From: the human T2T-CHM13v2.0 reference genome, Homo sapiens
DNA length: 64,000 bases
Assembly: GCF_009914755.1 (NCBI RefSeq)
Contig: NC_060941.1
Strand: one strand, 5' to 3'
Shown: piece by piece, positions 55,819-58,321 of the stretch
Numbering within the stretch: the first letter of the stretch is position 1
How the letters are laid out: each line of letters starts with the position of its first letter
Notes under the pieces: generated by a model
Seen by the model: the letters and a program-made list of their open reading frames with translations, nothing else
Database searches by the model: none
Told to the model about the DNA's origin: nothing
Position numbers and translations under genes: made by a program

Positions 55819-56305
55819 TCACTTGAGCCCAGGAGTTCAAACCAGCCTGGGCAACATAGCAAGACTCCATCTCCACAAAAAGAAAAAGAAATAGAAATAC
55901 ACAATACATGTCCTTTGCCAAAAAAATTAGTATATATAAGTTAATAATTTAAAATTTAACCCTACTCCATAAGAAGTAACTCCACTATTCACAATTGGGT
56001 GTGGCCTTCCAGATTTTTTTATACATATACAAATATGTCCAGGTCTTCCTGTTCTATTATTTTTTTTAATTGAATGGACTATTTGAATGCACATATTGTC
56101 TGCATAATTGAATGCACATATTGATCTGCAAGTTGCTTTCACCTAATATACTGTAGGCATCTATGTCTGTATTTATGGCATGACCTCATTGTTTTTAGTG
56201 GCCAAATAATATGTATTTTTTTCCCTACAAAATAATTTATTGGAACACACAGCTACAGCAGACACTCTATGTACAAGCACGTTGACACTCCTGACCTACC
56301 CTCAA

Positions 56306-57361
56306 CTAGGGGACCCTTTTCTTCCCCCTTGCCTTGCGGACCTCTTCTATCAAATCTTTCAGGTACTGGATCTCCTTGGCCAGGGAATCTGCCCTCTCTT
56401 TTAGAGCCTCGTTCTTCTTTTCCAGCTCTTTGCACTCGCCAGTGAGAGCCTCCTGCTCCGCCCTCTTCTTCTGGCGGTACCTAGTGGCTGCTGTCTTGTT
56501 TTGCTCCATTTTTTTCAGCTTCTTATCCAGTTTCTCACCCTTTACTTTTGCTGCTACCATCTTCTCTCCAGGAGGATCGTAAGGTTTGGGGTGGGCAGAC
56601 CCACAGAGAACACCTGGAGATGGGAGGCTCCTATTTGGAGAGCCCCTGGTAGAGGGGCTATGCTGAGGAGACCCCAGATAGGACTCTGGGCTCATACAGA
56701 TGCCACTATCATTATCTGAAGGGGTGTCTTCCTCCTTTATGCACTGAGGGATCATGGCAACGTAAGCAGTGGAGTCCGGCTTCCTATCTTCTTCAGTGAT
56801 ATCCACTTCACTGCCCAGCTCTAAACTAAAGGAATGATCTGGAGTGGAGGACTGGACCCCTGGGGAAAGGGGAAGAAGTTGCAAGAAGGTGAAGGGGGCA
56901 ACCTGGTCGGGTTTTGTTAAACTTTCTGGGAGATGGCCAATTGGGTTCACCATCTGGGGGGGCACCTTATTAGTCTCCTGGACTAGGGGGGCAAAGAGAT
57001 TACAAGTGTCATCCAACGTGGTCAAAAGGTCATCTGGCATGGTTTCCAGGTCATCTATACCCAACAGGGCACCAAAGTCGAACTCCTTCAAATCCATTTT
57101 CTCCAACATCCAATGTGTCCCAGAGAAGGCATCCTCCTTGCTGTTGTTGGAGGGACTGACCAACCCATCCACAGTCAGCCATTCGGAGGAGCCCGCCTTA
57201 GCCTTGTCGCTGGAGAACCCATGAGGTTTGAAGTGCTTGGCCACCTCCACGTAGTCATCTAAGAGACCTATGCTTTCTTCAGCCCCCAAACCCGACTGGT
57301 CGAAGGGGGACATCAAGTCCCCCACCAACACCTCGTTGCTCAGGAAGCTCATTTCGGTCAT
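56306..57361 (-). CDS. ATF4P3: Intact 351-aa ATF4-like bZIP ORF within the retrocopy (expression unknown)
   Basis: ORF track 351 aa, same length as ATF4; DSGICMS beta-TrCP degron, basic region KKMEQNKTAATRYRQKKR and leucine zipper all present; about 15 aa differences from recalled human ATF4. Confidence reflects uncertainty that it is translated. Confidence 0.55.
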   Translation of the reverse strand: MTEMSFLSNEVLVGDLMSPFDQSGLGAEESIGLLDDYVEVAKHFKPHGFSSDKAKAGSSEWLTVDGLVSPSNNSKEDAFSGTHWMLEKMDLKEFDFGALLGIDDLETMPDDLLTTLDDTCNLFAPLVQETNKVPPQMVNPIGHLPESLTKPDQVAPFTFLQLLPLSPGVQSSTPDHSFSLELGSEVDITEEDRKPDSTAYVAMIPQCIKEEDTPSDNDSGICMSPESYLGSPQHSPSTRGSPNRSLPSPGVLCGSAHPKPYDPPGEKMVAAKVKGEKLDKKLKKMEQNKTAATRYRQKKRAEQEALTGECKELEKKNEALKERADSLAKEIQYLKDLIEEVRKARGKKRVP

Positions 57362-57458
57362 GTTGCGGTGCTTTGCTGGAATCGAGTAATGTGCTTAATT
57401 CGAAGGTGTCTTTGTCGGTTACAGCAATGCTGCTGCTGAATGCCGTGGGAAGCGCCAT
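57279..57458 (-). promoter_or_regulatory. ATF4-type inhibitory uORF2 (59 aa) overlapping the main ORF out of frame
   Basis: ATG at 57458, 97 nt upstream of main ATG, open for 59 codons ([59 protein letters not shown]), ends 83 nt inside the main ORF. Confidence 0.9.
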
Positions 57459-57545
57459 GGCTTAAGCCGCTGGGGGGTGCCGCTGCAGAGCCTGGTGCTG
57501 CTGCCGCCGCTGCAAAGGCCAATGCTGCCGCAGGCACTGCTGCCC

Positions 57546-57557
57546 CTAATATGCCAT
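57546..57557 (-). promoter_or_regulatory. ATF4-type uORF1 (M-A-Y-stop)
   Basis: Minus strand GCCACC ATG GCA TAT TAG with strong Kozak context. Confidence 0.9.
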
Positions 57558-57613
57558 GGTGGCCGTGGACCCTGAGGGCGGGGAGGAGGGAAGGCGTGCA
57601 CGTGCGGAAAAAA

Positions 57614-57619
57614 CTACAT
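57614..57619 (-). promoter_or_regulatory. Start-stop element (ATG TAG) of the ATF4 5' leader
   Basis: Minus strand CAG ATG TAG TTT, as in the recalled human ATF4 leader. Confidence 0.75.
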
Positions 57620-58321
57620 CTGTGGGCAGGCAAAGTAGAAATGCCAAATAATATTAATAACCTCTTTTTTTGTTTTTTTTTTTTTTTGAGACGGGAGTCT
57701 CACTCTTGTCGCCTAGGCTGGAGTGCAATGAATGACACGATCTTGGCTCACTGCAACCTCTGCTTCCTGGGTTCAAGAGATTCTCCTGCCTCAGCCTCCC
57801 AAGTATCTGGGACTACAGGCACCTGCCACCACACTCAGCTAATTTTTGTATTTTTAGTAGAGACAGGGTTTTACCATGTTGGCCAGGCTGGTCTTGAACT
57901 CCTGACCTCAGGTGATCCGCCCACCTCAGCTTCCCAAACTGCTGGGATTACAGGCGTGAGTCACTGCGCCTGGCCTATAATCTCTTCAGAGGACTGACTC
58001 TATAACAGCACTGTACTAGCAAGTACTACACGGGTTATTCTTCACAACCCTTTGAAGATGTTGCTATTTTCTTTTCATTTTATAGAAGAGGAAACTAATG
58101 CACAGAGGTTAAATAATCTGTCCAAGGTCACACAGATAGTAAGAGGTAGTGGCCCGGCATGGTGGCTCACGCCTGTAATCCCAGCAGTTTGGGAGGCCGA
58201 GGTGGGCGGATCACCTGAGGTCGAGAGTTGGAGACCAGCCTGACCAACATGGAGAAACCCTGTCTCTACCAAAAATACAAAATTAGCCGGGCGTGGTGAT
58301 GCAGGCCTGTAGTCCCAGCTA

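What the first reader, a model, noticed from the sequence alone, without database searches (positions are those of the whole stretch)
56213..57642. ATF4 'pseudogene' that keeps an intact ORF and the whole stress-translation switch
Seen: intronless ATF4 copy with TSD, full 351-codon ORF without frameshift or stop, start-stop element (57614-57619), uORF1 MAY* with Kozak (57546-57557), 59-codon overlapping uORF2 (57279-57458), and AATAAA. Known: this uORF1/uORF2 layout gives ATF4 its eIF2alpha-phosphorylation-dependent delayed reinitiation. Inference: any capped transcript of this copy would be a ready-made integrated-stress-response-inducible second ATF4, i.e. a candidate retrogene rather than a dead pseudogene. 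A recent insertion could also remain intact by chance.
Basis: partly seen in the sequence, partly recalled or inferred. Interest (0 to 1): 0.8.

Follow-up and report, generated by a model that had tools for sequence, protein, structure and literature searches.

The report
Intact but apparently idle ATF4 retrocopy
This is ATF4P3, an intron-less copy of the stress-response gene ATF4 that still has a complete reading frame and control region; it was described in print in 2026, and its sequence changes and trace RNA levels fit an unused copy that has survived by chance.

Summary
Window 56216-57642 (-) is a full-length processed copy of ATF4 mRNA with 12-bp target-site duplications. It keeps a 351-codon ORF, the ATG-TAG start-stop, the 3-codon uORF1, the 59-codon overlapping uORF2, the overlap stem-loop and AATAAA.

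It is not new. Dalton et al. (HGG Adv 2026, PMC13587735) describe the same features of ATF4P3 and call it a functional retrogene.

My checks favour neutral drift:
- The retrocopy branch has 13 nonsynonymous and 5 synonymous changes, against a neutral expectation of 69-72% nonsynonymous. This matches the truncated sibling ATF4P4 (15:7). Parent-like constraint is rejected.
- The paper's ape sequences differ from human at 11 of 351 residues (chimpanzee) and 17 of 351 (gorilla), and gorilla has lost the uORF1 stop (read by eye).
- The paper's GTEx values for ATF4P3 are about 0.1% of parental ATF4 and track it across 52 tissues (r = 0.94). Its qPCR puts ATF4P3 at about 3e-5 to 3e-6 of ATF4.

No endogenous protein or leader-driven translation has been shown. 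Verdict: real, accurately read, already known, probably an idle retrocopy.

The parts
57643..57654 (-). 5' target-site duplication ATATTATTTGGC
   Evidence: Exact 12-bp repeat of 56201-56212. The same TSD is printed at the head of the ATF4P3 sequences in the paper's Table S1.
56216..57642 (-). ATF4P3 retrocopy body: full-length spliced ATF4 mRNA copy, from the leader to the A-run
   Evidence: Aligns to the three chr22 ATF4 exons, with junctions at GT..AG introns. Identity to the spliced parent is 96.4%. It starts one base inside the parent cDNA printed in the paper's Table S1.
57614..57619 (-). start-stop element ATGTAG (St-st / uORF0)
   Evidence: same mRNA position (24) as in the parent. The element is named in Smirnova 2024 (passages).
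57546..57557 (-). uORF1, ATGGCATATTAG (MAY*), context GCCACCATGG
   Evidence: One synonymous G>A difference from the parent.
57279..57458 (-). uORF2, 59 codons, out of frame with the main ORF and overlapping it
   Evidence: Three amino-acid differences from the parental uORF2 peptide. The 87-nt spacing from the uORF1 stop is identical to the parent.
57281..57349 (-). stem-loop in the uORF2/ATF4 overlap (SL3-like), preceded by an in-frame CUG at codon 7
   Evidence: same fold as the parent, -37.1 against -39.9 kcal/mol, z -3.4, and 0 of 200 shuffles fold as well. SL3 and the CUG are described in Smirnova 2024 (passages).
56306..57361 (-). main ORF, 351 codons plus stop; ATF4 paralogue
   Evidence: There are 27 nucleotide and 16 amino-acid differences from the CHM13 parent.
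56351..56536 (-). bZIP domain (codons 276-337)
   Evidence: Pfam bZIP_1, E 2.3e-17. 62 of 62 residues identical to PDB 1ci6_A. No nonsynonymous change on the retrocopy branch here.
56236..56241 (-). AATAAA polyadenylation signal inherited from the parent
56216..56222 (-). short A-run: the poly(A) remnant, 7 A against 3 templated A in the parent
56201..56212 (-). 3' target-site duplication ATATTATTTGGC
57668..57975 (-). Alu in the same orientation, its A-tail ending about 15 bp upstream of the insertion; it occupies the place where a promoter would be needed
   Evidence: Read directly. The Alu name is from recognition of the sequence, not from a repeat-masking tool. GC is 0.45-0.50 and no CpG-island-like rise is seen.

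Best explanation
ATF4P3 is a full-length, L1-type processed retrocopy of ATF4 mRNA. It sits in the sense orientation in an intron of RNF157, in the ancestor of human, chimpanzee, bonobo and gorilla by the paper's dating. It brought the whole 5' leader, the coding sequence and the poly(A) signal, but not the parental promoter.

In humans the ORF and the uORF switch are still intact. I read that as survival by chance in a young copy, not as maintenance by selection. Its coding sequence changes at the rate and in the pattern of unconstrained DNA. Its RNA is at or near noise level.

Steps that are shown: the origin, the anatomy, the intactness, and the neutral-like substitution pattern. Steps that are inferred: that most database 'expression' is mis-assigned parental ATF4 reads, and that the copy adds nothing measurable to the stress response. 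If a capped transcript did start near 57642, it would very probably be translated under eIF2alpha-phosphorylation control like ATF4 and give a DNA-binding-competent protein. That too is inferred and untested.
For: Origin. The copy is intron-less with junctions at the parental GT..AG introns. It has a 12-bp TSD and an A-run after AATAAA, and no parental upstream sequence.

Substitution pattern on the retrocopy branch, polarised with ATF4P4 and ATF4P1/2:
- 13 nonsynonymous and 5 synonymous changes (4 synonymous if the ambiguous L113 site is placed elsewhere). Nei-Gojobori dN/dS is 0.73 (0.92 with the alternative). The parental branch gives 0.22 and the pairwise value is 0.47.
- A CpG-aware neutral simulation expects 69-72% nonsynonymous; 72% is observed.
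- Parent-like constraint (omega 0.22) gives P(N>=13 of 18) = 0.0007-0.0018. The one-sided 95% lower bound on omega is 0.40-0.45, and omega = 1 fits.

Relative rate. ATF4P3 has 17 unique CDS substitutions and the truncated ATF4P4 has 21 (p = 0.63). Their N:S ratios are 13:5 and 15:7. The ATF4P3 CDS rate (17 of 1088 columns) is no lower than its UTR rate (9 of 374, p = 0.36).

Intactness is not improbable. P(ORF intact after 18 substitutions) is 0.57-0.63. The paper's own model gives about 20% for four apes.

Ape copies in the paper's Table S1, read by eye:
- Human and chimpanzee differ at 11 of 351 residues; human and gorilla differ at 17 of 351.
- The gorilla leader reads ATGGCATATCAG, so the uORF1 stop is lost, and has an extra C downstream.
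- The paper reports two predicted-damaging bZIP changes in gorilla.

RNA:
- In the paper's Table S4 (GTEx v10), ATF4P3 TPM tracks parental ATF4 TPM over 52 of 52 tissues. Pearson r is 0.94, Spearman 0.93, slope 0.0010, median ratio 0.00115 and CV 0.20.
- ATF4P3 is lowest in brain, where the paper says the host gene RNF157 is strongly expressed.
- 9.0% of 76-nt windows are identical to the parent and 21.6% differ at one base.
- The paper's qPCR Ct values put ATF4P3 at 3.3e-5 and 2.6e-6 of ATF4. Thapsigargin (p = 0.64) and arsenite (p = 0.34) gave no significant induction.
- The paper's ATF4P3 qPCR amplicon (56747-56988) lies wholly inside the copy, so it cannot separate an autonomous mRNA from RNF157 pre-mRNA.
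- In the paper, CMV-driven 5'UTR+CDS constructs gave no protein; protein appeared only after the Kozak sequence was engineered.
Against: - The ORF is full-length in all four apes examined by the paper, which puts the chance of that at about 20%. My own range for the human lineage alone goes as low as 0.05.
- No nonsynonymous change hit codons 276-351 on the human branch. The simulated probability is 0.046-0.048, but the region was chosen after seeing the data.
- The paper reports 'strong' CAGE TSS signal, H3K4me3 and cCREs at ATF4P3, hits in GTEx long-read data, and ATF4P3-specific variants in Sanger traces of DNase-treated RPE-1 cDNA. I could not inspect those data.
- The testis ATF4P3/ATF4 ratio is twice the median (0.0023), which may be real low-level transcription.
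- The V5-tagged ATF4P3 ORF, when overexpressed, is made, is stabilised by bortezomib and raises XPOT.
- With only 18 substitutions, moderate constraint (omega about 0.5-0.7) cannot be excluded.
Confidence: 0.7

Rival explanations
1. ATF4P3 is a working retrogene. It is transcribed from a start site at or near its own 5' end, at least in some cell types. Its inherited start-stop, uORF1 and uORF2 leader makes translation rise when eIF2alpha is phosphorylated. The product is a second ATF4 with an unchanged bZIP domain and an altered N-terminal half (for example P162L in the oxygen-dependent degradation domain), which modulates ATF4 target genes. This is the reading of the first reader and of Dalton et al. 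2026.
For: - Leader architecture is identical to the parent, including spacing, contexts and the overlap stem-loop.
- The ORF is intact in four apes. The bZIP matches the solved ATF4 chain at 62 of 62 residues. The DSGICMS degron string is present in the ORF.
- The paper reports CAGE, H3K4me3 and long-read signals and ATF4P3-specific cDNA variants.
- The overexpressed ORF gives a proteasome-sensitive protein that raises XPOT.
- The bZIP is free of nonsynonymous change on the human branch (P about 0.05).
- The testis ratio is twice the median.
Against: - The branch N:S of 13:5 equals the neutral expectation and matches dead ATF4P4.
- Ape orthologues differ from human at 11 and 17 of 351 residues, and gorilla has lost the uORF1 stop (by eye).
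- Gorilla has bZIP changes predicted damaging.
- RNA is about 0.1% of ATF4 in GTEx and tracks ATF4. By qPCR it is 3e-5 to 3e-6 of ATF4 and is not significantly induced by thapsigargin or arsenite.
- No promoter was copied, and an Alu lies directly upstream.
- No endogenous protein, Ribo-seq or mass-spectrometry evidence exists: these words occur 0 times in the paper.
- The paper's 5'UTR+CDS constructs gave no protein.
Confidence: 0.18
2. The copy matters only as a passenger or modifier of its host gene. It is transcribed as part of RNF157 pre-mRNA. Its sense-strand AATAAA could act as an intronic polyadenylation site that truncates some RNF157 transcripts. Any 'ATF4P3 RNA' would then be intronic or chimeric and would not be translated through the ATF4-type leader.
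For: - It has the same orientation as RNF157 and lies in the intron upstream of the exon at 42920-43038 (annotation supplied with the finding).
- AATAAA is intact.
- The qPCR amplicon cannot tell pre-mRNA from mRNA.
- The paper itself suggests use of the RNF157 promoter.
Against: - GTEx ATF4P3 values are lowest in brain, where the paper says RNF157 is strongly expressed, and they follow ATF4 instead.
- No annotated RNF157 transcript has an exon in or next to the copy, according to the annotation table given with the finding.
- I have no RNF157 expression table or transcript data to test this directly.
Confidence: 0.07
3. The transcript acts at the RNA level, as a decoy for microRNAs or RNA-binding proteins that regulate ATF4, in the way PTENP1 is said to act for PTEN.
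For: 96.4% identity to ATF4 mRNA over its whole length, including the 3' UTR. The paper raises this possibility.
Against: At roughly 1e-3 (GTEx) to 1e-5 or 1e-6 (qPCR) of ATF4 mRNA abundance, it cannot titrate factors away from the parent. This stoichiometry argument is an inference. There is no sequence constraint in the UTRs relative to the CDS.
Confidence: 0.03

Closest known systems
ATF4P3 as described by Dalton et al., HGG Adv 2026 (PMC13587735; bioRxiv 10.64898/2026.03.31.714484)
   Same: It is the same locus. The paper reports the same facts: RNF157 intron, same strand, TSDs, all three uORFs intact, a full 351-aa ORF, 15 missense differences with none in the bZIP, and P162L.
   Different: The difference is in interpretation only. 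The paper concludes 'functional retrogenes'. My branch-polarised counts, the comparison with ATF4P4, the ape protein differences, the gorilla uORF1 loss and the ATF4-tracking GTEx values point to neutrality. In CHM13 the parent carries P22, which gives 16 rather than 15 differences.
Parental ATF4 (chr22) and its delayed-reinitiation leader (start-stop, uORF1, uORF2, SL3; Smirnova et al. 2024, PMC11058473, passages read)
   Same: Same order, positions, contexts and spacing of the start-stop, uORF1, uORF2 and main AUG. Same overlap stem-loop and in-frame CUG. Same bZIP.
   Different: No introns and no parental promoter. There are 14 leader and 27 CDS differences from the parent; about 7 and 17-18 of these are specific to the copy. 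There are 13 copy-specific amino-acid changes, all in residues 9-257. Whether this leader works has not been tested.
ATF4P4 (chr11), the sibling retrocopy of similar age
   Same: Same kind of full-length L1-type copy (95-96% identity to the query or the parent mRNA). Similar number and N:S mix of unique CDS substitutions: 21 substitutions and 15:7, against 17 and 13:5.
   Different: ATF4P4 has lost the start-stop and uORF1 stops and is cut to 137 codons. It has two 1-bp CDS deletions. ATF4P3 escaped such hits.
Established protein-coding retrogenes (PGK2 and HAPSTR2 are the examples named in the paper)
   Same: Intron-less copy with an intact ORF of a broadly expressed parent.
   Different: For ATF4P3 I found no robust independent expression, no sign of purifying selection and no endogenous protein. 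The properties of PGK2 and HAPSTR2 are taken from the paper's discussion and were not tested here.

Membership tests
L1-mediated processed retrocopy | Introns precisely removed relative to the parent gene | tested here: met
   Three alignment blocks against chr22 ATF4, with boundaries at GTGAGT...CAG introns.
L1-mediated processed retrocopy | Flanking target-site duplication, and an A-run after the poly(A) signal | tested here: met
   Exact 12-bp ATATTATTTGGC on both sides. There are 7 A's where the parent has 3. The tail is very short.
L1-mediated processed retrocopy | Parental promoter not included | tested here: met
   Homology starts at the first bases of parental exon 1. Upstream lie the TSD and then an Alu.
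ATF4-type uORF switch (delayed reinitiation) | Short, reinitiation-permissive uORF1 followed by an inhibitory uORF2 that overlaps the main ORF out of frame, with parental spacing | tested here: met
   uORF1 is 3 codons at mRNA position 86. uORF2 is 59 codons at position 185, in frame +2 relative to the main AUG at 282. The spacing is 87 nt, as in the parent. Only the sequence was tested, not the function.
ATF4-type uORF switch (delayed reinitiation) | Start-stop element and overlap stem-loop with an upstream CUG | tested here: met
   ATGTAG at position 24. The stem-loop folds at -37.1 kcal/mol with the same pairing as the parent, and the CUG at codon 7 is kept. The elements are as named in PMC11058473.
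ATF4-type uORF switch (delayed reinitiation) | Stress-induced translation from this leader | not testable with these tools
   No reporter or Ribo-seq data are available. The paper's 5'UTR+CDS constructs gave no protein.
bZIP transcription factor (ATF4) | Basic region and leucine zipper domain | tested here: met
   Pfam bZIP_1 at 63.3 bits against a cutoff of 27.6. 62 of 62 residues identical to 1ci6_A.
Functional protein-coding retrogene | Purifying selection on the retrocopy branch (omega well below 1) | tested here: not met
   N:S is 13:5 and omega is 0.73-0.92. The nonsynonymous fraction of 0.72 compares with 0.69-0.72 expected neutrally. The pattern is the same as in dead ATF4P4. Power is limited, because omega of 0.5-0.7 is not excluded.
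Functional protein-coding retrogene | ORF kept open in sister species | tested here: met
   351-aa proteins for chimpanzee, bonobo and gorilla are printed in the paper's Table S1. This was read from the paper, not recomputed from genomes.
Functional protein-coding retrogene | Independent transcription, not explained by the parent or the host gene | tested here: inconclusive
   GTEx values track ATF4 (r = 0.94) at about 0.1%. qPCR gives 3e-5 to 3e-6 of ATF4. The paper's CAGE and long-read claims could not be inspected.
Functional protein-coding retrogene | Endogenous protein product | not testable with these tools
   The paper's text mentions Ribo-seq and mass spectrometry 0 times. Only V5-tagged overexpression is reported.

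The most novel reading that the evidence does not exclude
In some human cell type that bulk data do not capture (testis shows twice the usual ATF4P3/ATF4 ratio), ATF4P3 is transcribed from its own 5' end and translated through its intact uORF switch. That would give humans a second stress-inducible ATF4 whose human-specific P162L change weakens oxygen-dependent degradation. The intact leader is found in human, chimpanzee and bonobo but not gorilla, so this would be a lineage-restricted gain.
Probability: 0.1. Interest if true: 0.6.

Novelty: already known. Interest (0 to 1): 0.2.

Why it matters
ATF4 is the central effector of the integrated stress response. A second, independently regulated ATF4 in humans would matter for stress biology. 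It would also matter for interpreting ATF4 knockouts, antibodies, qPCR assays and read mapping.

As it stands, the practical value is cautionary. The copy is 96.4% identical to ATF4 mRNA, so it can both absorb and donate mis-assigned reads. Its published 'expression' scales with ATF4 itself.

The claim that it is functional is already in the literature. The useful addition here is that branch-specific substitution counts, the dead sibling copy, the ape orthologues and the paper's own expression tables all fit neutrality.

Tried and rejected
- Literature searches for ATF4P3 (8 papers, 7 listed), for 'ATF4 pseudogene/retrocopy/retrogene/ATF4C' (15 papers, 11 listed) and for the Ensembl ids (1 paper) found only one study of the locus. 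From their listed titles and abstracts, the other ATF4P3 hits are expression or review papers on other topics; I did not open them. The ATF4C hits are unrelated usages.
- A codon-based analysis across apes was not possible. The paper's nucleotide cells are cut at 400 characters in the copy I could read, and no ape genomes are held here. I therefore compared only the printed proteins and the first 400 nt, by eye and without a script. Those counts (11 of 351, 17 of 351, the gorilla uORF1 stop loss) should be recomputed.
- The paper's supplementary figures (mmc1.pdf, with Figures S4-S8 on CAGE, chromatin, dN/dS plots and Sanger traces) could not be read. They may bear on the transcription-start and selection claims.
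- I considered that the absence of nonsynonymous changes in the bZIP shows constraint (P about 0.05). I did not rely on it, because the region was chosen after seeing the data and because gorilla and bonobo do carry changes there.
- I considered host-gene (RNF157) read-through as the main RNA source. It ranks below parental bleed-through, because the values are lowest in brain and follow ATF4.
- No structure prediction, complex prediction or large protein-database search was run. The protein is an obvious ATF4 paralogue, so they would not change the verdict.
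Full report
**What is there.**
On the minus strand, window 56216-57642 is a complete, intron-less copy of ATF4 mRNA.
- The 351-codon ORF (56306-57361) is open.
- It carries a bZIP_1 domain at residues 276-337 (E 2.3e-17).
- It matches the solved human ATF4 bZIP chain 1ci6_A at 62 of 62 aligned residues.
- Upstream lie ATGTAG (57614-57619), ATGGCATATTAG (57546-57557) and a 59-codon uORF (57279-57458) that overlaps the main ORF out of frame.
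- AATAAA is at 56236-56241, followed by seven A's.
- The whole insert is bracketed by an exact 12-bp duplication, ATATTATTTGGC, at 57643-57654 and 56201-56212.

**Origin.**
A search of the window's own assembly found several related loci:
- the parent on contig 22, in three exon blocks;
- ATF4P4 on contig 11;
- the ATF4P1/P2 pair on X;
- an extra 118-bp 3' fragment on X.

The block boundaries of the parent fall at GT..AG introns, and homology begins at the first bases of parental exon 1. The paper's parent cDNA starts only one base further upstream. No parental promoter came along. Directly upstream are the TSD and a same-strand Alu, then an inverted Alu, with no CpG-island-like rise in GC. 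The copy lies in the sense orientation in an RNF157 intron (annotation supplied with the finding).

**The leader.**
Against the spliced parent, the copy keeps the start-stop at mRNA position 24. It keeps uORF1 (context GCCACCATGG), uORF2 (59 codons) and the main AUG (context CGCAACATGA), each in the same place relative to the others. The uORF1-stop to uORF2-AUG spacing is 87 nt in both.

The siblings are damaged here. ATF4P4 has lost the stops of the start-stop and uORF1, and ATF4P1/2 have lost the uORF2 AUG.

The stem-loop in the uORF2/ATF4 overlap and the in-frame CUG upstream of it are described by Smirnova et al. 2024 (PMC11058473, passages). Both are kept. The fold has the same pairing, at -37.1 against -39.9 kcal/mol, and 0 of 200 shuffles fold as well. 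So 'the whole switch is there' is true at the sequence level. Nothing shows that it works in this copy.

**Already in print.**
Dalton et al. (HGG Adv, Aug 2026, PMC13587735; preprint Apr 2026) is devoted to the four human ATF4 retrocopies. I read its sections 17, 21, 28, 29, 32, 33 and 34, passages of other sections, and supplementary tables S1 (part 2), S4 and S5.

For ATF4P3 it reports:
- the RNF157 intron location, the same strand and the TSDs;
- all uORFs intact and a full ORF;
- 15 missense differences with none in the bZIP, and P162L;
- presence and intact ORFs in human, chimpanzee, bonobo and gorilla (about 14.8 My);
- dN/dS of 0.4-0.6 pairwise and about 0.7 against a reconstructed ancestor;
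- a chance of about 20% of staying intact;
- a GTEx maximum of 0.88 TPM;
- CAGE and H3K4me3 signal;
- no significant induction by thapsigargin or arsenite;
- a V5-tagged overexpressed protein that is stabilised by bortezomib and raises XPOT.

It concludes that the copies are functional retrogenes. Three literature searches found no other study of the locus.

**Independent test of selection.**
I aligned the copy with the spliced parent, ATF4P4 and ATF4P1/2.
- There are 51 differing columns between the parent and the copy. Of these, 27 are in the CDS, giving 16 amino-acid differences. One of them is Q22P carried by this assembly's parent, which is why the paper counts 15.
- Polarising with the two other copies puts 13 nonsynonymous and 5 synonymous changes on the ATF4P3 branch, and 4 and 5 on the parental branch.
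- Nei-Gojobori dN/dS is 0.47 pairwise, 0.73 on the ATF4P3 branch (0.92 if the ambiguous L113 site is placed elsewhere) and 0.22 on the parental branch.
- The pairwise value below 1 therefore comes from the parent's own constraint.
- A CpG-aware neutral simulation expects 69-72% of substitutions to be nonsynonymous; 72% is observed.
- Parent-like constraint is rejected (P = 0.0007-0.0018). Omega = 1 fits. The one-sided 95% lower bound on omega is 0.40-0.45.
- Against the demonstrably truncated ATF4P4, the copy is no slower (17 against 21 unique CDS substitutions, p = 0.63) and no different in kind (13:5 against 15:7). Its CDS is no slower than its UTRs (p = 0.36).

**Is intactness surprising?**
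Given 18 substitutions, the ORF stays open in 57-63% of simulations. I allowed for indels at 0.05-0.14 per substitution. The middle value comes from the sibling copies and the outer values from recall. That brings the chance to 0.05-0.26, in line with the paper's 20%. This is one of five ATF4-derived insertions in this genome. The paper cites about 8,000 retrocopies in humans. Against that background the chance is unremarkable.

The one hint of constraint is that no nonsynonymous change fell in codons 276-351 (P about 0.05). That region was chosen after the fact.

**Ape copies.**
The following was read by eye from the paper's Table S1 and not scripted, so it needs recomputation.
- The same TSD heads all four ape sequences.
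- Human differs from chimpanzee at 11 of 351 residues, and from gorilla at 17 of 351.
- From recalled genome-wide divergences of about 1.2% and 1.6-1.75%, and a 0.7 nonsynonymous fraction, about 9 and 12-13 differences would be expected with no constraint at all.
- Five changes are shared by all four species: S9N, D83H, T137M, L170Q and R257H.
- Four are private to human: L31I, A133V, P162L and G191E.
- The gorilla leader reads ATGGCATATCAG, so the uORF1 stop is lost, and it has an extra C downstream. The three-codon uORF1 that the switch depends on is therefore not conserved there.
- The paper reports two gorilla bZIP changes predicted to be damaging.

**Expression evidence re-examined.**
- In the paper's Table S4, ATF4P3 median TPM follows parental ATF4 TPM across all 52 tissues. 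Pearson r is 0.94, Spearman 0.93, slope 0.0010, median ratio 0.00115 and CV 0.20.
- It is lowest in brain, where the paper says the host gene is strongly expressed. The brain and non-brain ratios to ATF4 are the same (0.00124 and 0.00114).
- A copy without the parental promoter should not mirror the parent this closely.
- 9.0% of 76-nt windows are identical to the parent and 21.6% differ by one base. The simplest reading is therefore that about one parental read in a thousand is assigned to the copy. This is an inference.
- ATF4P4 behaves the same way outside testis and cerebellum (r = 0.93).
- The paper's text does not use the words correlate, rank, mis-map, pre-mRNA, Ribo-seq or mass spectrometry.
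- Its qPCR Cts (about 32 for ATF4P3 and about 17 for ATF4) put the copy at 3.3e-5 and 2.6e-6 of ATF4 in RPE-1 cells, assuming equal primer efficiency.
- The ATF4P3 amplicon was partly contaminated by ATF4.
- The amplicon lies wholly inside the copy (56747-56988), so it cannot separate an autonomous mRNA from RNF157 pre-mRNA.
- Only the first 27 nt matter for short CAGE tags, and they differ from the parent at one base. I could not see the paper's CAGE figure.

**How it most likely works.**
My best reading, at confidence 0.7, is that it does nothing measurable. It is a young retrocopy without a promoter. Its ORF and leader have so far escaped disabling hits, while its protein sequence drifts at the neutral rate.

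- Shown: the origin, the anatomy, the intact state and the neutral-like substitution pattern.
- Inferred: that database expression is mostly parental bleed-through, and that the copy contributes nothing to the stress response.
- Conditional: if a capped transcript began near 57642, ribosomes would meet the same start-stop, uORF1 and uORF2 logic as on ATF4. They would reinitiate at uORF2 when ternary complex is plentiful, and bypass it to reach the main AUG when eIF2alpha is phosphorylated. The product would bind DNA like ATF4. The mechanism is established for the parent, known to me from recall and from the passages, and is untested for this leader.

The rivals are a genuine low-level retrogene (0.18), a passenger or modifier of RNF157 (0.07) and an RNA decoy (0.03).

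**Limits.**
- Only 18 branch substitutions are available, so moderate constraint cannot be excluded.
- The ape comparison is by eye, on truncated data.
- I had no access to CAGE, long-read, Ribo-seq, proteomic or population-variation data.
- The paper's PDF supplement was unreadable here.

Noticed in passing
L008:1505-1618 (own genome, contig 23, 96141848-96141965): A fifth ATF4-derived insertion. It holds only the last ~118 nt of the mRNA (88-90% identity), followed by an A14 tail, and is flanked by a 9-bp repeat AAGAAGGCA. That makes it a 5'-truncated L1-type retrocopy. It is not among the four copies treated in the 2026 paper.
   Followed up: partly
L007/L005 (parental ATF4, contig 22), codons 22, 96, 133 and 197: All retrocopies agree against the parent at these codons, so the copies act as fossils. 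The parental lineage changed F96L, E133Q and S197Y after the copies were made. This assembly's parent also carries P at codon 22 where every copy has Q. From memory, I recall a common Q22P polymorphism.
   Followed up: partly
Paper Table S1, ATF4P3 sheet; corresponds to window 56306-57361: Some site patterns do not fit the species tree. K190 is seen in chimpanzee and gorilla but not in human or bonobo. V38 is shared by human and bonobo, and T63 by human and gorilla. Bonobo shows about ten private amino-acid changes, far too many for its short separate history. Assembly error, lineage sorting or conversion are all possible. This was read by eye only.
   Followed up: no
Paper Table S4; locus L002 (ATF4P4): ATF4P4 TPM also tracks ATF4 (r = 0.93) once testis (2.3 TPM) and the two cerebellar samples (about 0.6) are set aside. 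Those three tissues are the only places where a retrocopy signal stands clear of the parental trend.
   Followed up: partly
window 57655-58445 (-): The retrocopy inserted about 15 bp downstream of the A-tail of a same-strand Alu, and an inverted Alu lies about 200 bp further upstream. The A/T-rich target (TTATTA|ATATTA) fits L1 endonuclease preference, as I recall it.
   Followed up: no
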